IMG/VR virus record: IMGVR_UViG_3300042259_000065
Origin: a virus
Lineage: Duplodnaviria > Heunggongvirae > Uroviricota > Caudoviricetes
DNA length: 64,000 nucleotides
Reading direction: 5' to 3' (one strand)
Each line of letters opens with the position of its first letter. Position 1 is the stretch's first letter. The position numbers and the translations under genes were made by a program. The notes below the pieces were generated by a model. The model saw only the letters and a list, made by a program, of their open reading frames with translations, made no database searches and was not told where the DNA came from. Shown piece by piece: positions 2,151 through 48,201 of the stretch.

Positions 2151-2497
2151 AGTGATTGACTCGTTTTAGATAAGGTTTGTGTACAAACTTTATGAATACT
2201 CTTTACAGGAAGGTCTATATACTTCAAGTAATAATCTTTAATGTCAGACTTATCCTTTACAGAAAGAGTTTGACTTTCCACCAAACTTTTAACCTTCTGT
2301 GAGAATAGGTGTTGTTCATAAACCTTACCTTGCACACGATAGAAACTCTCACAAACTAATAGTGTTGAAATATATTGAAGCTTATTCTGATGTTCAACTT
2401 CCATTGTGAGGTGATCTTTGTGCACAGGAGTGTTGATTGTTGAAACACAACCTGTTAACAACAACCCTGTTAAGATAAGTAAACTTTTCATAATCAA
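2147..2497 (-). CDS. Putative lipoprotein
   Basis: N-terminus MIMKSLLILTGLLLTGC has a signal peptide followed by a lipobox LTGC. Confidence 0.5.
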   Translation of the reverse strand: MIMKSLLILTGLLLTGCVSTINTPVHKDHLTMEVEHQNKLQYISTLLVCESFYRVQGKVYEQHLFSQKVKSLVESQTLSVKDKSDIKDYYLKYIDLPVKSIHKVCTQTLSKTSQSL

Positions 2498-2742
2498 CCC
2501 TCCTTCTGTGTACGATTGAAATATTCTTCATCATATTCATCAGCTTCTTTTGTGGAAACATTTGCCAATAGCTGATGGTCATATTCACTTTGTGGATACC
2601 AATCGGAGATAACCTTACGAGAACGTTTCTTATCATTCCCATAGACAATATTCACTACTTTGAAACCTTGTTTCTCAATATACGTTTGCAAAGCATCTGT
2701 TGTGGATTGAGTATATCCGGTGTAGACATATAACTTTTCCAT
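2494..2742 (-). CDS. Hypothetical protein
   Basis: 82-aa ORF with 4-nt overlaps on both neighbours. The overlapping ORF 2394..2648 is judged spurious. Confidence 0.45.
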   Translation of the reverse strand: MEKLYVYTGYTQSTTDALQTYIEKQGFKVVNIVYGNDKKRSRKVISDWYPQSEYDHQLLANVSTKEADEYDEEYFNRTQKEG

Positions 2743-2752
2743 AAGAATTCTC

Positions 2753-3517
2753 CTATACTCGACTAATATTCAATTTATCTAAAATTCTCTGTGTTTGTGA
2801 AGGATTCAGTGATTTACCTTCACGAGAAGTAATATTCATCTTGTTCAGATTAGAACAAATATTTGCAAAAGTCAACTTTGTCTTAGAAGCTTTCATCATA
2901 GTGATAATGTGTTCAATTTGAGGGCGCTGTTGTTCCCAGTAATCTGAAGCTTCTGATGAAGTACGTTTTGATACATGCTTGATTTTCCCTTGTGCAAGTT
3001 TTTGTTGATAAGCATCAGAAGCTGCACCAAGTTTAACACCTTTTGATTTAGCTGCAGCAAGGCCACGTTTAACACGGTCAGCAATCATTAGGCGCTCTTG
3101 TTCCGATAAAGCTGCATATATGTGCAATTGGAAATTATCTGCATTAGGCAGCGCTGCAACTTTAAACTTAATCTCACCCTCCATATGACGAGCAATTTGT
3201 GAAACACGTCTTGAGATACGATCCAACTTCGCCACAAGTAAAACAGCTTTTTCCTCTTTGCAGAGTTGCATTGCTTTCTCAAGCTCAGGTTTGTGTTCTG
3301 CAGTACCCGAAATGAATTCTTTGAAGTCACCAATAACTTGACCACAACCTTCTTTATCAAGGAAGTATTTGATATCATTCATTTGTGAATCAAAACCATG
3401 TTGTGTACGAGACTTATCTTCTTTAGAAAGACGACGATATACAACATATTTAATTTCTGACATAATAAAAACCCTCTGTGTAAAACTAACCTTTTTGATA
3501 TAGGCTAATCTTAGCAA
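2753..3517 (-). CDS. Serine recombinase (resolvase/invertase family)
   Basis: N-terminal RRLSKEDKSRTQHGFDSQ, then LLVAKLDRISRRVSQIARHMEGEIKFKVAALP and ERLMIADRVKRGLAAAKSKGVKLG. These match the catalytic-domain blocks of small serine recombinases. Confidence 0.65.
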   Translation of the reverse strand: MLRLAYIKKVSFTQRVFIMSEIKYVVYRRLSKEDKSRTQHGFDSQMNDIKYFLDKEGCGQVIGDFKEFISGTAEHKPELEKAMQLCKEEKAVLLVAKLDRISRRVSQIARHMEGEIKFKVAALPNADNFQLHIYAALSEQERLMIADRVKRGLAAAKSKGVKLGAASDAYQQKLAQGKIKHVSKRTSSEASDYWEQQRPQIEHIITMMKASKTKLTFANICSNLNKMNITSREGKSLNPSQTQRILDKLNISRV

Positions 3518-13691: not shown

Positions 13692-14168
13692 TTATTTTAG
13701 GTTTACAATAAAACTCTCTATATTATCAAACAATATAGTGTCTACGTCTGAAAATCGTTGACGTAATTCTAACAACTTACCTATCTTAAATGTTTTATAG
13801 GCATTAAGAGCATCTTCTTCATTAATATAAGTACCTAAGTAAGTTTGTCGCTTCTTTCCGTTCGAACACACCTCACCATTCTGGCATTGTGCAATCCACT
13901 TACCTTTGCTCTTACTGTAATGAATACCTCTTTTCAACCCTCCAGTTAGGAATGAATTTAGTTCAACAGGTATGAATGTGCAGGTTTCAGGTGAATACAC
14001 TTTAGTGCCCATAACTTTTAAGTCTTTATCTAAACGATAACCTTCTATATGGTACTTATAATACCATTCTGCAAATGTCTGGTAATTATGCCACTCTTTA
14101 CACACCTCCACATCCTTATAAAATTTAGCTATATCCTTGTTTTTAGGGGCATAACACCTTTTGATCAT
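13692..14168 (-). CDS. Homing-endonuclease-like protein with AP2-type DNA-binding domain
   Basis: N-terminal RCYAPKNKDIAKFYKDVEVCKEWHNYQTFAEWY block, then an AP2-like segment (GIHYSKSKGKWIAQ...YLGTYINEEDALNAY). It is a paralog of 45236..45880. Confidence 0.5.
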   Translation of the reverse strand: MIKRCYAPKNKDIAKFYKDVEVCKEWHNYQTFAEWYYKYHIEGYRLDKDLKVMGTKVYSPETCTFIPVELNSFLTGGLKRGIHYSKSKGKWIAQCQNGEVCSNGKKRQTYLGTYINEEDALNAYKTFKIGKLLELRQRFSDVDTILFDNIESFIVNLK

Positions 14169-14632
14169 ATCTAACCAAGTCTGATAACAAGTAACGTCTT
14201 TTCCCCTAGACCCATAGATACCTTCACCAAAGTAACCAACCCCACCTATTGCGGGATTATATAGGTCTTTTATGGAGCCATTCCTAACTTCCTTGGAAGT
14301 AGTTAACCTAGTAGACCCTGAATCTGAGAACCTTATTAAGAGTTTTGTAGGTTCTTTACCATTACGGACGTAATCAATTACGGTTAGTTATAGCCCTTCC
14401 TTATTCTTAAAGGTACTACCTCGGATGGGGAGAGACCTACAACCGCAGGTCTCAGTATTACCACTAGTCAGATAATTCAGAGGGATTTCTATTGTTTCAG
14501 GGTTCCACAGGCACATGAACATCTGACCAACCTACCACCACGTTCATTTGTTTTACAGCAATCTTCTAGAATAGTTAATCTTCCATAAGTCTTACCTATA
14601 TAATCGTCTATATTTAATTTAGCAGGCATATT

Positions 14633-43607: not shown

Positions 43608-43837
43608 CAACACATGAATTAGCAAGACAATTACTTGCACTAAAAGACGTACCTATTGTACATTTGCATACACATTTTGATTATGTAGATAATTTTGTGC
43701 AAGTAAATACTATTGGAATCAATCTTCTTGAAGAAAATGGAGTCTTGCAAGAAGTAGGGCTTTATCCAGAAAAGTTGATTCGTGAAGAGGGCGGTTTTGG
43801 TGTGATTGACCATACTTTGGAGGAGAATTGTGATTGA
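43604..43837 (+). CDS. Hypothetical protein
   Basis: 77-aa ORF. Confidence 0.4.
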   Translation: MTTHELARQLLALKDVPIVHLHTHFDYVDNFVQVNTIGINLLEENGVLQEVGLYPEKLIREEGGFGVIDHTLEENCD

Positions 43838-45239
43838 TGAAAAGTTGCAGAGTGTTAATGATTTAATTGCTTCAGCATCAGTACCTTTGAATGAAAAACA
43901 ACAAATGTTTTTACACAAATTCATTTCAAGCAACAGGCATGGAATTCTCCAAGGTATTGCTGGTGTTGGAAAAGGGGAGATGATTAAACTTCTCAAAAAG
44001 TGGTATGGTGAAGAGTTAGCTGTTTTCTGTAGTACAGGGGTAGCTTCCCAAAACTTATCTTGCTCATATGGGACAGCACACGCTTATCTTTCACTACCAA
44101 TTAAACCTGCTACAGAGTATGACTACAAGAAAGTTTCTTCCAAATCTTCAGGTTTATTAGGTGGTTCAGATAAGATTAAGATTATTTTGATAGATGAAGC
44201 TTTCTTATTGAACTCTGATAATCTAGATGTTATTTGGAGGAGATTGGAAAGGTTTAATCGAAAATACCGTAAACGTAAGAAGCGTAATATTCGTTTAGTC
44301 TTGGTAGGTGATACAGGACAATCTGTAACTATTGCAGATGATGATTTGAAGGCTGAACTAAAATCTCGATGGGGTTCACATTTGATGTTTGAATCGTCTG
44401 TATGGGGTAGATTTAATTTTGAGTACTATGTTCTAGATAAAGTCGAGCGCCAAGAAGATAAAGTTTTCAAAGCTTGCCTTGATGTGATCAGATACAACCA
44501 GAAAGAACGTTTTGATAAATGCTTCAAGTGGTTAAATAAACGTCAAAGCAATCAATATAACCCTGAGTGGATTTATCTTGCAGCTACCAATAAACAAGTT
44601 GATAGTATTAACGAAAGTGTGTTAAACAATAACCCAAATGAAAAGTTTCATTTTCCTGCTTTAATACAAGGCGATTTCAATATCAAAGACACTTTGGTAA
44701 GAGAAAATGGGGTGACTATTTGTAAAGGTTTGAAAGTTATGACAATCACCAATGAAGAATATGGTAGATGGAGTAATGGTAGCACAGGAATTGTAACTCT
44801 TGCGGATAGTGAAGGTTGTTATATTAAGTTTGACCACTCAGGAAAAGAAGAATATGTAACTTTAAACGAATGGCAAAACAAAGAAGTCTACACAGAAGAT
44901 GTTGTTGATAAAGAATCTGGTGAAATCACAACCAAAGTTAAAGAGAAAATTCTTGGTTCTATGGTGTGTCTGCCTGTACTACCTAGTTCAAGTATTTCCA
45001 TTATGAAGTCACAAGGGCTTACAATTAGCACAGATTATATTATTGACCTTGGAGAAGATTACTTATACACTTGGAAAAAGATGGGAGACTTTGCGACAAA
45101 CTTTTTGTATCTTGGATTAAGTAGAGGTGTTGACATTAACAAAATTCACCTTAAACAGCAAGTTAAACCTTTTCATGTGAAAGTATCTGAGGAATCAATT
45201 AAATTTTGGAAATATTGTAAGGAGAAGAGTTTGATATGA
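43806..45239 (+). CDS. Dda/RecD-like SF1 helicase
   Basis: The Walker-A region GIAGVGKGEM, Walker-B-like ILIDEAF, and SIMKSQGLTIS (motif V/VI) are laid out as in T4 Dda. Confidence 0.6.
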   Translation: MTILWRRIVIDEKLQSVNDLIASASVPLNEKQQMFLHKFISSNRHGILQGIAGVGKGEMIKLLKKWYGEELAVFCSTGVASQNLSCSYGTAHAYLSLPIKPATEYDYKKVSSKSSGLLGGSDKIKIILIDEAFLLNSDNLDVIWRRLERFNRKYRKRKKRNIRLVLVGDTGQSVTIADDDLKAELKSRWGSHLMFESSVWGRFNFEYYVLDKVERQEDKVFKACLDVIRYNQKERFDKCFKWLNKRQSNQYNPEWIYLAATNKQVDSINESVLNNNPNEKFHFPALIQGDFNIKDTLVRENGVTICKGLKVMTITNEEYGRWSNGSTGIVTLADSEGCYIKFDHSGKEEYVTLNEWQNKEVYTEDVVDKESGEITTKVKEKILGSMVCLPVLPSSSISIMKSQGLTISTDYIIDLGEDYLYTWKKMGDFATNFLYLGLSRGVDINKIHLKQQVKPFHVKVSEESIKFWKYCKEKSLI

Positions 45240-45880
45240 GTAAAAGATTAGTTTTTGGGGTAGGCATAAACAATGCTGATTATAAACAGGAGGAAAGGAT
45301 TAGATGGAAAACTGAAGACGGTATTAATAAATCTAAACTTTTATGGCAATGTCCTTACCATTTAAAATGGCACAACATCTTACAAAGATGTTACTCTCCA
45401 GCCTATCATAAACTTAAGGAAACTTACAGGGATTGTTACATATGTGATGAATGGAAATTATTCTCAAACTTTAAGGCATGGATGGAATTACAAGATTGGG
45501 AGAATAAAGTGCTTGATAAAGATTTACTTATAGAGAATAATAAAGAGTATTCACCGGATACTTGTATCTTTATAAGCAGAGATTTAAATACATTCCTAAC
45601 CCTTAGTGATAAGACTAGAGGTAATTATCCTATAGGTGTGAACTATTACAGGTGGAATAATTCTTTCAGGGCGGGTATTTGTTATAAAGGTAAGTCTAAA
45701 AGTTTAGGATACTTTAGCACTCCAGAGGAAGCACATTTGCAATGGCAAAAAGCTAAATTGGATAGGGTTATAGAGTTTATAGATGATACAACAGAAGATA
45801 GAGTTCTATTCGGGTTGAATAGGATAAAATTAAAGTTAGAACACGACATTAAATATGGACTGGAGACTAAAGATTTATGA
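45236..45880 (+). CDS. Homing-endonuclease-like protein with AP2-type domain; paralog of 13692..14168
   Basis: LQRCYSPAYHKLKETYRDCYICDEWKLFSNFKAWM, then an AP2-like YKGKSKSLGYFSTPEEAHLQWQ. Confidence 0.5.
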   Translation: MSKRLVFGVGINNADYKQEERIRWKTEDGINKSKLLWQCPYHLKWHNILQRCYSPAYHKLKETYRDCYICDEWKLFSNFKAWMELQDWENKVLDKDLLIENNKEYSPDTCIFISRDLNTFLTLSDKTRGNYPIGVNYYRWNNSFRAGICYKGKSKSLGYFSTPEEAHLQWQKAKLDRVIEFIDDTTEDRVLFGLNRIKLKLEHDIKYGLETKDL

Positions 45881-45949
45881 ACCAAACAGAAAAAGGTTTC
45901 AGAGAAGAATTCTCATTCTTATCAAACTTTACATATTTCGAAAAAACCA

Positions 45950-46324
45950 ATGTTTTACTTTGGACTAACCTTTACCACAAATGAACACTTTTACCAAGCA
46001 ATGAAATTTGATAAAGGTAGTGTACATAGGAAAGAGATATCTAATCACCCAAGCAAAGGTTTGAAGAAATATGTCAATTCTCTCAAACATGAATGGAGAT
46101 CGGATTGGGATGAAGTTAAAATCAATGTTATGGAATATAGTTTAAGATATAAGTTCTCTGAACATAACCCAATTCTACGTCAAAAACTCATCGAGACTAG
46201 AGATGTAGAACTTGTAGAAATGAATTGGTGGAATGATATCTTTTGGGGTGTAAGTCTTAAAACTAATGAAGGTGAAAACAATCTTGGTAAATTACTTATG
46301 AAAATCAGAGAGGAGATTTCATGA
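45950..46324 (+). CDS. NADAR (YbiA-like) domain protein; the N-terminus looks short
   Basis: NEHFYQAMKF, W..VK..VM...L.YKF..HN..LRQKL..T, and WGVSLKTNEGENNLGKLLMKIR match the NADAR signature. The family N-terminal segment (~25 aa) appears to be missing. Confidence 0.55.
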   Translation: MFYFGLTFTTNEHFYQAMKFDKGSVHRKEISNHPSKGLKKYVNSLKHEWRSDWDEVKINVMEYSLRYKFSEHNPILRQKLIETRDVELVEMNWWNDIFWGVSLKTNEGENNLGKLLMKIREEIS

Positions 46325-46605
46325 AACTTAAAATCTATTACCGAAAGAACTTAAAACTTTCACCACAAAAACTTGCTGCAGTATGTACACATATTGGCAA
46401 AGAGTTGGGTAAAGTTTGTGGATACACATATGCTTGGGAAGATAAGGTTGTTATCCTTACAGCAAGTGATAAGAAGTTCGAAGAGTATAAGGATAATTGT
46501 CGTAATAATAGTGGTGTTTTATATCATATTCATATTGACAGAGGTTTTACAGAAGTAGAACCTAATACAGAGTGTGCAATCGGTTGGATTGAGGAAGATG
46601 AATAA
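46321..46605 (+). CDS. Hypothetical protein
   Basis: 94-aa ORF. Confidence 0.45.
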   Translation: MKLKIYYRKNLKLSPQKLAAVCTHIGKELGKVCGYTYAWEDKVVILTASDKKFEEYKDNCRNNSGVLYHIHIDRGFTEVEPNTECAIGWIEEDE

Positions 46606-47812: not shown

Positions 47813-47887
47813 GCAGGTGTGATGTAATGGAGAGCATATTTCTCTTCTAAAGAAATCGTCAGCGTTCGAATCGCTGCACCTGTACCA
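47813..47887 (+). tRNA. tRNA-Arg (anticodon TCT) with encoded CCA
   Basis: Hand-folded cloverleaf. The acceptor pairs gcaggtg with cacctgt (G-U first pair), the D-loop has GG, the anticodon stem pairs tttct with agaaa, the loop is cTTCTaa, and the T-arm is cagcg TTCGAAT cgctg. A discriminator A and CCA follow. Confidence 0.7.
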
Positions 47888-48126: not shown

Positions 48127-48201
48127 GGGTATGTAGCTCAGAGGCAGAGCAATTGGCTGTTAACCAATAGGTCGAGATTTCGAAATTCTCCATATCCGCC
48201 A
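48127..48201 (+). tRNA. tRNA-Asn (anticodon GTT) with encoded CCA
   Basis: The acceptor pairs gggtatg with catatcc, the D-arm is gctc agaggca gagc, the anticodon stem pairs attgg with ccaat, and the loop is cTGTTaa. The T-loop is TTCGAAA, with one T-T mismatch in the T-stem. A discriminator G and CCA follow. Confidence 0.65.

What the first reader, a model, noticed from the sequence alone, without database searches (positions are those of the whole stretch)
45236..46324. NADAR-domain gene with a shortened N-terminus directly behind a homing-endonuclease-like gene; possible anti-DarT function
ORF 45950..46324 carries the NADAR signature (EHFYQAMKF ... WGVSLKTNEGENNLGKLLMKIR) but starts ~25 aa later than typical family members. 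The sequence upstream up to the HEG-like gene's TGA (45878..45880) is in the same frame (TKQKKVSEKNSHSYQTLHISKKP-M...). NADAR enzymes are known to remove ADP-ribose from guanine bases written by DarT-type toxins. A phage copy is a plausible counter to DarTG-like abortive-infection systems. The juxtaposition suggests the HEG insertion clipped the NADAR 5' end, or that the effective start lies upstream or involves readthrough.
Basis: partly seen in the sequence, partly recalled or inferred. Interest (0 to 1): 0.55.

Follow-up and report, generated by a model that had tools for sequence, protein, structure and literature searches.

The report
Frameshifted phage NADAR gene behind endonuclease
This Vibrio phage carries a normal-length NADAR (ADP-ribose-removing, anti-DarT-type) gene that one extra A in an A-run has broken in two, so the 124-aa "short NADAR" is the out-of-frame remnant of a recently inactivated accessory gene and not a new short enzyme.

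Summary
The ORF 45950..46324 is a genuine NADAR match, and the gene 45236..45880 is an HNH/AP2-type homing-endonuclease-like gene. The N-terminus is not missing and was not clipped by the endonuclease gene. It is encoded in another frame, starting at ATG 45877, which overlaps the endonuclease stop codon as ATGA. It reads MNQTEKGFREEFSFLSNFTYFEK.

The two frames meet at an A6 run (45941..45946). Removing one A gives a 148-aa protein that is 76-78% identical end to end to intact 147-152 aa NADARs of related Vibrio phages. Those phages have five bases at this position.

The extra A is real: ten contigs from at least nine samples carry it, with zero differences across the endonuclease and NADAR genes. 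No intact allele of this lineage and no short NADAR subfamily were found. The 124-aa product lacks the superfamily-wide FLSNF motif, a helix and most of a beta-strand, and it has no ribosome-binding site. No frameshift-stimulating signals are present.

The best reading is a recent slippage mutation (A5 to A6) that gave a null or weak allele, possibly hitch-hiking with the endonuclease gene. Anti-DarT1 activity of phage NADARs is already published (AdfN). This is an ordinary finding, with a small residual chance of low-level recoding.

The parts
45236..45880 (+). Free-standing homing-endonuclease-like gene (214 aa, HNH/AP2 type). Its start overlaps the helicase stop and its stop overlaps the NADAR start (ATGA).
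   Evidence: PHROG 953 at E=3.8e-81. Weak Pfam AP2 at E=0.024, and no Pfam HNH model matched. It is 27-34% identical to paralogues in this window (about 13710-14300, minus strand) and in vB_CoeS_P1, with shared LDKD...YSPxTC...LN and RGV...LG motifs.
45877..46324 (+). Whole NADAR (YbiA-type) gene, interrupted by a +1-nt frameshift.
   Evidence: With one A removed it gives 148 aa that is 76-78% identical end to end to intact NADARs of Vibrio phages PWH3a-P1 and IBT_VpB-34, and about 70% identical to that of VPMCC14. Pfam score is 84.4 bits. The AlphaFold model has pLDDT 94.2 and matches YbiA 2b3w and NADAR 8bau at TM 0.76-0.78.
45877..45984 (+). 5' fragment ORF (35 aa). The first 23 codons are the authentic NADAR N-terminus with the FLSNF motif. 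The last 12 codons (TNVLLWTNLYHK) are out of frame.
   Evidence: S16 and N17 are invariant, and F8, L15 and F18 are at least 90% conserved, in 26 homologues.
45941..45946 (+). A6 run, the frameshift site. Relatives have 5 bases here (AAACA or ATAAA). The inferred ancestor is GAA AAA CCA (E-K-P), with an A5 run.
   Evidence: DNA alignment A1. The identical GAAAAAACC is present in 10 independent contigs. It is the only A6/T6 run in the window that sits at a frame break.
45950..46324 (+). It carries the catalytic residues E36, K43 and E114 (numbering of the repaired protein). Homology in this frame begins at codon CCA 45947.
   Evidence: Pfam E=1.1e-22. Residues were mapped onto P. nicotianae NADAR E43/K50/E125 by profile alignment and the literature. 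No Shine-Dalgarno sequence precedes ATG 45950.
43957..46326 (.). A 2.37-kb block (most of the Dda-like helicase, the endonuclease gene and the frameshifted NADAR) that is 100% identical between two otherwise diverged phage haplotypes.
   Evidence: The window compared with L021 has zero mismatches across 43957..46326. The flanks carry 22 mismatches in 43619..43810 and 41 in 46327..46588.

Best explanation
This is a standard-length, YbiA-type phage NADAR gene (148 codons). It belongs to an accessory class of ADP-ribose N-glycosidases that several phages use to strip DarT1-written ADP-ribose from guanines in their DNA. In this lineage the gene has been disrupted by a single-base insertion.

Replication slippage lengthened an A5 run (GAA AAA CCA) to A6 at codons 23/24. 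Ribosomes starting at the true start codon (45877, translationally coupled to the upstream endonuclease-like gene through ATGA) now make a 35-aa peptide and stop at 45982..45984. The remaining 124 codons form an out-of-frame remnant ORF whose ATG is simply the family's conserved internal Met25.

The allele is therefore null or strongly hypomorphic. It is young, because the rest of the gene shows no decay. It is fixed in the sampled phage population. It lies inside a perfectly conserved block centred on the endonuclease gene, so it may have spread by recombination or homing-associated co-conversion. It is one slippage step (A6 to A5) from reversion.

Shown: the anatomy, the insertion, that it is real, the family assignment, and the loss of conserved N-terminal elements from the 124-aa ORF. 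Inferred: loss of function, the slippage origin, hitch-hiking, and the anti-DarT role of the intact ancestor.
For: - The frame-1 ORF encodes the conserved N-terminus.
- The DNA alignment shows exactly one extra base in the A-run compared with three intact orthologues.
- The repaired protein aligns over residues 3-148 in one piece to 436 of 439 phage records at 80% coverage or more.
- Homologues in a 5.8-billion-protein search are almost all 138-159 aa and full coverage. The only 100% hit is the 124-aa fragment itself.
- Ten contigs from at least nine JGI and Logan samples carry A6, with 0 mismatches in 1089 nt, so it is not a sequencing error.
- Only two flagged split-frame hits appear among 113 ORFs compared with vB_CoeS_P1. 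One lies on the non-coding strand and the other is intact in the window, so the window is not error-prone.
- S16 and N17 are invariant, and F8, L15 and F18 nearly so. The same FLSNF motif is present in YbiA and in P. nicotianae NADAR.
- The AlphaFold model places helix 10-15 and strand 20-27 (pLDDT 94-97) in the lost or broken part.
- There is no SD before ATG 45950, no RNA structure around the site (z=-0.69), and the frameshift is not conserved in relatives.
- Vibrio phage 277E43-1 has an independent NADAR frameshift at a different homopolymer and of opposite sign. Frameshifted NADAR fragments also occur at other positions in metagenomes (P0097 and P0109). Sporadic decay of this gene is therefore recurrent.
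- Inactive alleles of other anti-DarT factors (AdfA, AdfB) circulate in phages (PMC11481870).
Against: - Apart from the one base, the gene is pristine. All 37 invariant or near-invariant family columns are retained and there is no second lesion. That is also what a still-used, recoded gene would look like.
- The frameshifted allele is the only allele seen in 19 contigs. The intact allele is absent from a 15-billion-protein collection, so the broken state is not obviously being purged.
- A +1 slip of tRNA-Lys from AAA to the overlapping AAA would re-pair perfectly and give exactly the consensus FEKPM.
- All copies are identical, so no dN/dS test was possible.
Confidence: 0.75

Rival explanations
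1. Compensated ('savior') indel or recoding. The gene is still expressed as a full-length 148-aa NADAR at a low level. This would occur either by a +1 ribosomal slip of peptidyl-tRNA-Lys on AAA_A (45943-45946) or by RNA polymerase slippage that drops one A from the A6 run. The insertion would then act as an attenuator or as a reversible on/off switch.
For: - Perfect AAA to AAA re-pairing is possible, and the shifted product reproduces the family consensus FEKPM.
- The gene shows no other decay.
- The allele is fixed in all 19 contigs.
- A/T runs of 6 or more are 8-10-fold depleted in this window, which fits such runs being slippage-prone in this phage.
- There is precedent for low-level compensatory frameshifting on a homopolymer indel, namely HSV thymidine kinase (PMC5009743).
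Against: - The A-site codon ACC is not a stop codon. I take it to be a commonly used codon in Vibrio; this is from memory and was not tested here.
- There is no SD-like stimulator upstream and no downstream structure (z=-0.69).
- Efficient bacterial transcriptional slippage is described for runs of about 9 A/T, not 6 (PMC5009743).
- Other A6/T6 runs sit inside long, presumably essential ORFs of the same window, so slippage at A6 must be rare.
- The break is not conserved in any diverged relative.
- A second split NADAR uses a different site and the opposite sign.
Confidence: 0.12
2. One reading: the 124-aa C-terminal fragment is itself the functional product. It would be made from ATG 45950, or as an endonuclease-NADAR fusion by readthrough of the endonuclease TGA, which is in the same frame. 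It would be a naturally short NADAR that still removes ADP-ribose.
For: - The fragment keeps the catalytic Glu, Lys and Glu (E36, K43, E114 of the repaired numbering) and scores 81.4 bits against Pfam NADAR.
- The endonuclease frame and the fragment frame are the same, with no stop between 45881 and 45950.
- ATG 45950 is a conserved Met codon.
Against: - There is no ribosome-binding site before 45950.
- The fragment lacks the invariant S16/N17 of the FLSNF motif, helix 10-15 and most of strand 20-27 of a compact, high-confidence domain.
- None of 179 homologues forms a short subfamily.
- In the intact relative IBT_VpB-34 the endonuclease and NADAR genes are in different frames, so a fusion is not a conserved design.
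Confidence: 0.06
3. Endonuclease-linked lesion. The indel lies in or next to the recognition site of the adjacent homing endonuclease. It persists because it protects the carrier genome from self-cleavage, or it arose during repair of a cut. This would resemble the T4 mobA / gene 60 cassette, where an insertion next to a homing endonuclease gene protects the DNA. It is compatible with the best explanation for what the allele does now.
For: - Both split NADARs found (the window and phage 277E43-1) lie directly behind homing-endonuclease genes of different families. Both breaks fall within the first 100 nt or so of NADAR.
- In a small, biased survey, 2 of 3 endonuclease-adjacent NADARs are split against 0 of 10 others.
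- The NADAR 5' coding region is the most conserved DNA stretch among orthologues, which is the kind of site homing endonucleases favour.
- There is a perfect 2.37-kb identity block centred on the endonuclease gene.
- Precedent exists in bioRxiv 10.1101/2022.08.31.505936 (title and abstract only, the paper was not opened).
Against: - The sample is tiny and biased, because both split cases were found through being split.
- NADAR frameshifts also occur mid-gene and near the 3' end in other contigs.
- Both lesions are plain homopolymer slips (A5 to A6; G5 to G4 inferred).
- The endonuclease's target site is unknown, and Pfam does not detect its HNH motif.
Confidence: 0.05
4. Sequencing or assembly artefact: a homopolymer miscall created a false frameshift.
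For: The break is at a homopolymer, the classic site of sequencing indels.
Against: - Identical A6 occurs in 10 contigs from at least nine different samples and two assembly pipelines, JGI and Logan.
- Gene callers found the same 124-aa product on 19 contigs.
- No other genuine frameshift was found in the window among 113 comparable ORFs.
Confidence: 0.02

Closest known systems
Intact NADAR orthologues of related Vibrio phages (PWH3a-P1 VPIG_00148 / YP_007676007, annotated 'GTP cyclohydrolase II'; IBT_VpB-34 WQZ33519; VPMCC14 UUW39758)
   Same: They sit at the same position just downstream of the Dda-like helicase and share the same ATGA-coupled start. They are 76-78% (VPMCC14 about 70%) identical over the full 148 residues once one A is removed. 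IBT_VpB-34 also has an HNH endonuclease gene in the slot between helicase and NADAR.
   Different: They are single uninterrupted ORFs of 147-152 aa, with five bases where the window has AAAAAA. In PWH3a-P1 and VPMCC14 the upstream slot holds SLOG-type (YAcAr) or DprA-like genes instead of an endonuclease gene.
NADAR of T5-like coliphages Bas32/Bas33 (NADAR^Bas32), an anti-DarTG1 factor (Johannesman, Carlson and LeRoux 2024, PMC11257639)
   Same: It is a stand-alone phage NADAR outside the T4 gp30.3 clade. The Bas33 (HildyBeyeler, MZ501074) homologue is 40% identical over 95% of the repaired protein. It was shown experimentally to neutralise DarT1 and to restore phage growth on DarTG1 hosts.
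   Different: It is intact and tested, whereas the window's copy is frameshifted and untested. At 40% identity, substrate specificity cannot be transferred with confidence. E. coli YbiA, for example, hydrolyses ADPr-guanine in vitro but does not rescue cells from DarT1 (PMC11125620).
T4 AdfN (gp30.3)
   Same: It belongs to the NADAR superfamily and is a phage-encoded orphan 'antitoxin-like' DNA ADP-ribosylglycohydrolase.
   Different: The gp30.3 clade has a histidine at the family-defining position of the last strand, while this protein has glutamate (E114), the YbiA-family state. T4 gp30.3 is 208 aa.
E. coli YbiA (PDB 2b3w) / YbiA family of NADARs
   Same: It is the best sequence and fold match among solved structures (profile E=6.8e-28; Foldseek TM 0.76; 32% identity). 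Both are a 'naked' YbiA domain without N-terminal extension, with glutamate in the last strand.
   Different: It is a cellular protein linked to riboflavin-intermediate N-glycosidase activity and to swarming. This one has a phage context and a frameshift.
Naturally circulating inactive alleles of anti-DarT factors (AdfA in RB69; AdfB G62 allele in ICP1)
   Same: These are phage counter-defence genes against DarTG that are found in nature in inactive form and can become active again by simple mutation (PMC11481870).
   Different: Those are missense alleles of non-NADAR proteins. Here the lesion is a homopolymer frameshift.
Homopolymer 'savior' indels with low-level compensatory frameshifting (HSV thymidine kinase G7), and the T4 mobA / gene 60 bypass cassette
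   Same: In the first, an indel in a homopolymer run within a viral accessory gene is partly compensated by slippage. In the second, a coding interruption lies directly next to a homing endonuclease gene (PMC5009743; 10.1101/2022.08.31.505936).
   Different: No recoding signal or expression evidence exists here. A6 is shorter than the runs known to slip efficiently, and the interruption is not conserved across diverged relatives.

Membership tests
NADAR superfamily (Pfam PF08719 / DUF1768) | Significant match to the family profile above the curated threshold | tested here: met
   The 124-aa ORF scores 81.4 bits and the repaired 148-aa protein 84.4 bits, against a cut-off of 35.1. It also matches PHROG 1017 at E=3.3e-35.
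NADAR superfamily | YbiA fold: helical core flanked by two small beta-sheets | tested here: met
Foldseek gives TM 0.76 to 2b3w (YbiA) and 0.78 to 8bau (P. nicotianae NADAR with ADP-ribose).
NADAR superfamily | Catalytic Glu and phosphate-binding Lys (E43/K50 of P. nicotianae; E88/K95 of E. coli C7 NADAR) | tested here: met
   E36 and K43 align to them in NEHFYQAMK. Both lie in the 3' ORF.
NADAR superfamily | Conserved N-terminal F-x-G...[FW]LSNF motif as part of one continuous polypeptide | tested here: not met
   The motif is encoded (45898..45930) but in a different frame from the catalytic part. S16 and N17 are invariant in 26 homologues. One base must be skipped to join the two parts.
YbiA family within NADAR (versus BC4488/DarG1-like and gp30.3/AdfN-T4 clades) | [quoted passage not shown] | tested here: met
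   E114 (ELVEMNWWND) aligns with the YbiA and P. nicotianae E125 glutamate. The criterion is taken from PMC11543638 and PMC11125620. The protein is therefore not a member of the DarG1-like or gp30.3 clades.
AdfN-type anti-DarT1 counter-defence (functional class) | Removes ADP-ribose from guanine in DNA and restores phage growth on DarTG1 hosts | not testable with these tools
   There is only homology: 40% identity to the active Bas32/33 NADAR. In addition, the native allele is frameshifted.
HNH homing endonuclease (free-standing) | HNH nuclease motif plus a DNA-binding module; multi-copy and sporadically distributed between conserved genes | tested here: inconclusive
   There are strong PHROG matches to 'HNH endonuclease' families (953 at E=3.8e-81; 374 at E=1.4e-34), a weak AP2 domain, paralogues within the genome, and variable occupancy of the slot in relatives. 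However, no Pfam HNH model matched, and the position aligned to the usual D-H reads D-K-D. Nuclease activity is untested.
Programmed ribosomal frameshift / transcriptional slippage site | Shift site conserved across diverged homologues, with stimulatory elements (SD-like sequence, slow A-site codon, downstream structure, or a long homopolymer) | tested here: not met
   Relatives lack the extra base, and 12 of 13 related loci have single-ORF NADARs. No structure was found (z=-0.69). The run is only A6, whereas known slippage uses runs of about 9.

The most novel reading that the evidence does not exclude
The single-A insertion is not mere decay but part of the biology of the endonuclease-NADAR cassette. 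It would alter the homing endonuclease's own target in the highly conserved NADAR 5' region, giving self-immunity as the T4 mobA / gene 60 insertion does. Low-level +1 slippage on AAA_A, or A6 to A5 reversion, would keep NADAR available as an attenuated or switchable anti-DarT function. The recurrence of a second, independent 5' frameshift behind a different homing endonuclease gene in phage 277E43-1 would then be a pattern and not a coincidence.
Probability: 0.06. Interest if true: 0.6.

Novelty: new member of a known kind. Interest (0 to 1): 0.2.

Why it matters
It matters mostly for annotation and interpretation. Gene callers record this locus as a 124-aa 'ribA/ribD-fused uncharacterized protein', which could be mistaken for a minimal NADAR or counted as an active anti-DarT gene.

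In fact it is a frameshifted allele of a normal 148-aa phage NADAR, and it is fixed across many samples. This adds to the reports that anti-DarT counter-defence genes often circulate in inactive form and can return by a one-step mutation.

If the low-probability reading were true, with the indel tied to homing-endonuclease immunity and compensated by slippage, it would be a second natural example of a coding interruption co-evolving with a free-standing homing endonuclease. As it stands, the finding is ordinary.

Tried and rejected
- **Sequencing error.** Rejected. Ten contigs from at least nine samples share A6. A tblastn screen of 113 ORFs found no other genuine frameshift in the window. Of the two flagged hits, one lies on the non-coding strand and the other, at about 36750, is an intact 125-aa ORF.
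- **Homopolymer-error estimate.** Comparison with the closest complete genome (vB_CoeS_P1) was uninformative, because the genomes are only 73-93% identical and most indels are compensating pairs in divergent stretches.
- **dN/dS or polymorphism test for continued selection.** Impossible. All copies of the endonuclease and NADAR genes are 100% identical, and the protein cluster has a single member.
- **Search for an intact A5 allele.** None was found in IMG/VR, where the pattern accepted both A5 and A6 and only A6 turned up. None is in the 15-billion-protein exact look-up. Two scans of metagenome contigs returned nothing at all, not even the known A6 contigs, so that collection evidently lacks these samples and the result says nothing.
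- **Short NADAR subfamily.** Rejected.
- **Endonuclease gene clipping the 5' end.** Rejected.
- **Recoding signals.** No RNA structure, no SD and no terminators were found.
- **Split-protein complementation** (as in Aeh1 NrdA; from memory, not tested). Considered unlikely, because the break falls inside a beta-strand and the N-fragment carries 12 out-of-frame residues.
- **Association between endonuclease adjacency and NADAR lesions.** The numbers are suggestive (2/3 against 0/10), but the sample is biased and too small.
Full report
**What is in the sequence**

Three tightly packed plus-strand genes fill the region. A Dda/PIF1-like helicase lies at 43806..45239 (Pfam AAA_30 and PIF1). A 214-aa gene lies at 45236..45880. 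The NADAR-matching ORF lies at 45950..46324.

The 214-aa product matches PHROG 953 'HNH endonuclease' at E=3.8e-81 and weakly matches Pfam AP2. It has 27-34% identical paralogues elsewhere in the window (about 13710-14300, minus strand) and in the related phage vB_CoeS_P1. 'Homing-endonuclease-like' is therefore a fair description, although no Pfam HNH model matches it and nuclease activity is untested.

The 124-aa ORF matches Pfam NADAR at E=1.1e-22, but only profile positions 34-162 of 163. It really is short at the N-terminus.

**Where the N-terminus went**

The ORF list shows a 35-aa ORF at 45877..45984 in a different frame. Its ATG overlaps the endonuclease stop (ATGA). Its product begins MNQTEKGFREEFSFLSNFTYFEK, which is the conserved NADAR N-terminus.

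The two frames overlap at an A6 run, 45941..45946 (cgAAAAAAcc). Deleting one A gives a 148-aa protein that extends the Pfam match to positions 9-162. A tblastn search aligns its residues 3-148 in a single piece to intact genes of Vibrio phages PWH3a-P1 (77%), IBT_VpB-34 (76%) and VPMCC14 (67%). In all, 436 of 439 matching phage records cover at least 80% of it.

The nucleotide alignment shows the lesion directly. Where the window reads TTCGAAAAAACCAATG, the relatives read TTCG-AAACACCAATG or TT(T/C)G-ATAAACCTATG, so the window has one extra base. The inferred ancestor is GAA AAA CCA (E-K-P), an A5 run that slipped to A6.

It contains no start codon, and it is not the family N-terminus.

**Is the extra base real?**

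Yes. Two IMG/VR contigs from different metagenomes have the same A6. The exact 124-aa product is on record from 19 contigs in JGI and Logan assemblies. All ten loci I read carry GAAAAAACC, with 0 mismatches over the 1089 nt of the endonuclease and NADAR genes.

These copies are not one clone. The flanks define at least three haplotypes: 0 or 2 mismatches in the helicase, and 0 or 48 mismatches in 281 nt of the next gene.

The window itself is not error-prone. Among 113 ORFs comparable with vB_CoeS_P1, only two split-frame hits were flagged. One lies on the non-coding strand and the other is an intact ORF in the window.

**Is there a short NADAR subfamily?**

No. Of the 120 best homologues in a 5.8-billion-protein search, all but the fragment itself and three other truncated or frameshifted calls are 134-239 aa and cover 89-100% of the repaired protein.

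In an alignment of 26 homologues down to 45% identity, S16 and N17 are invariant, and F8, L15 and F18 are at least 90% conserved. The same FLSNF motif is present in E. coli YbiA and in the Phytophthora NADAR crystal structure.

An AlphaFold model of the repaired protein has pLDDT 94.2 and pTM 0.87. It superposes on YbiA (2b3w, TM 0.76) and on NADAR with ADP-ribose (8bau, TM 0.78). In the model the lost or broken segment comprises helix 10-15 and most of strand 20-27, which pairs with strand 30-34.

The catalytic residues defined by Schuller et al. (E43, K50 and E125 of P. nicotianae; PMC11543638) map to E36, K43 and E114, and all lie in the 3' ORF. Glutamate at the last-strand position places the protein in the YbiA family. 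It is not in the DarT1-associated (Asp) clade or the T4 gp30.3 (His) clade.

**Could it be recoded or otherwise expressed?**

A +1 slip of tRNA-Lys from AAA (45943-45) to AAA (45944-46) would re-pair perfectly and would reproduce the consensus FEKPM. Nothing else supports programmed recoding:

- The next codon (ACC) is not a stop codon; I take it to be commonly used in Vibrio, from memory.
- There is no SD-like element upstream.
- The surrounding 121 nt fold no better than shuffled sequence (z=-0.69).
- The break is absent from every diverged relative.
- Efficient bacterial transcriptional slippage is described for runs of about nine A/T (PMC5009743).

A/T runs of 6 or more are strongly depleted in the window: 6 A-runs against about 57 expected, and 9 T-runs against about 71. 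The few that exist sit inside long ORFs, and the NADAR run is the only one at a frame break.

ATG 45950 is the family's conserved internal Met25, and it has no ribosome-binding site. The endonuclease gene and the 124-aa ORF share a frame, so TGA readthrough would give a fusion. That fusion would still lack the N-terminal motif, and the shared frame is not conserved in IBT_VpB-34.

**Context and history**

The synteny helicase, then a variable slot, then NADAR is conserved. The slot holds an HNH endonuclease gene in IBT_VpB-34, a YAcAr/SLOG protein in PWH3a-P1 and a DprA-like protein in VPMCC14.

The closest complete genome, vB_CoeS_P1, replaces the endonuclease gene, NADAR and the next gene with a cpYpsA/SLOG gene and two small ORFs. 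The exchange occurs exactly at gene junctions. SLOG-NADAR neighbourhoods in phages have already been described (PMC9503650).

Between the window and a diverged haplotype (L021) there is a 2.37-kb stretch, 43957..46326, with no mismatch at all. It ends exactly at the NADAR stop. It is flanked by 22 mismatches in 43619..43810 on one side and 41 in 46327..46588 on the other. I infer that the block of helicase, endonuclease gene and frameshifted NADAR moved recently between genomes by recombination. That fits homing-associated co-conversion, with the dead NADAR allele as a passenger, but it is an inference.

A second, independent split NADAR occurs in Vibrio phage 277E43-1. It lies directly behind a different, canonical homing endonuclease gene (PHROG 655/10088). 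The frame change there has the opposite sign and lies roughly ten codons further in, best explained by G5 to G4. Other metagenomic NADAR calls are frameshifted mid-gene or near the 3' end (P0097 and P0109). Sporadic decay of this accessory gene is therefore recurrent.

In a small, biased survey, 2 of 3 endonuclease-adjacent NADARs are split against 0 of 10 others. I treat this as a lead only.

**Comparison with what is known**

The proposed function is not new. Phage NADARs that strip DarT1-written ADP-ribose from DNA were reported as AdfN (T4 gp30.3). Divergent NADARs from T5-like (Bas32/33) and Vequintavirinae (Bas60) phages also neutralise DarT1 (PMC11257639). The Bas33 (HildyBeyeler) homologue is 40% identical to the repaired protein.

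Activity in vitro does not guarantee protection in vivo. E. coli YbiA and T4 gp30.3 failed to rescue cells from DarT1 in one study (PMC11125620). The anti-DarT role of the intact ancestor is therefore plausible but unproven.

Inactive alleles of other anti-DarT factors circulate naturally (PMC11481870).

**Verdict**

The real feature is a recent homopolymer frameshift that splits an otherwise pristine, ordinary-length YbiA-type phage NADAR gene, and it is fixed in a sampled Vibrio-phage population.

I rate it most likely (0.75) a null or weak allele that could revert in one step. Low-level recoding (0.12), a functional fragment (0.06) and an endonuclease-linked origin (0.05) remain possible. 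Interest is low (0.2). The main practical value is to stop the 124-aa ORF from being read as a minimal NADAR or as an active counter-defence gene.

Noticed in passing
window 46321..46605 (+): The gene directly after NADAR (94 aa, start overlapping the NADAR stop) is a short PTH2-like peptidyl-tRNA-hydrolase-fold protein (Pfam PF01981 at E=3.9e-6 and 27.5 bits, above the cut-off; PHROG 31188). It differs at 48 of 281 nt between haplotypes that are 100% identical across the adjacent 2.37 kb. Other haplotypes replace it with unrelated small genes.
   Followed up: partly
L017 (Vibrio phage 277E43-1, OX241464.1) 2403..2845: A second, independent split NADAR (annotated CDSs of 43 aa and 104 aa) lies directly behind a 315-aa canonical homing endonuclease gene. 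The frame change has the opposite sign to the window's and lies about ten codons further downstream, probably through G5 to G4.
   Followed up: partly
window 45245..46605 versus L001/L019 (vB_CoeS_P1, PV206818.1 49090..49997): There is cassette polymorphism at exact gene junctions. The closest complete phage has a cpYpsA/SLOG gene (179 aa) plus two small ORFs where the window has the endonuclease gene, NADAR and the PTH2-like gene. PWH3a-P1 and VPMCC14 have YAcAr-SLOG or DprA-like genes in the slot upstream of NADAR. This looks like a hot spot for NAD/ADP-ribose-related accessory genes.
   Followed up: partly
whole window (runs listed): A and T homopolymers of 6 or more are 8-10-fold rarer than in dinucleotide-preserving shuffles (A: 6 against about 57; T: 9 against about 71). 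Runs of 3-4 are at or above expectation, so there is a sharp cut-off at length 6. This suggests strong selection against slippage-prone runs in this phage.
   Followed up: partly
window 43957..46326: This stretch is a perfect identity block between two haplotypes that differ by 2-17% immediately outside it. The right edge coincides exactly with the NADAR stop and the left edge lies near the helicase start. The pattern fits recent recombination or homing-associated gene conversion around the endonuclease gene.
   Followed up: partly
window about 13710..14300 (-): A paralogue of the endonuclease-like gene (27% identity, same LDKD...YSPxTC and RGV...LG motifs) is present. vB_CoeS_P1 carries two more (XTP71303, XTP71317). 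This is a multi-copy free-standing endonuclease family in this phage group.
   Followed up: no
window 47813..47887 and 48127..48201 (+): Two tRNA genes, tRNA-Arg(TCT) and tRNA-Asn(GTT), lie 1.5 kb downstream of the NADAR locus (ARAGORN and Rfam agree).
   Followed up: no
proteins P0097, P0109 and P0092: Other metagenomic NADAR homologues are truncated. P0097 and P0109 show what look like out-of-frame C-terminal tails, which suggests frameshifts at mid-gene or 3' positions. They sit on short contigs, so sequencing error cannot be excluded.
   Followed up: no
L018 (Vibrio phage 166E36-1, OZ196864.1): tblastn reports two NADAR-like places in this record. The intact 153-aa NADAR at L018 2489..2950 is followed by an overlapping 138-aa ORF. 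I did not examine whether that ORF is the second copy.
   Followed up: no
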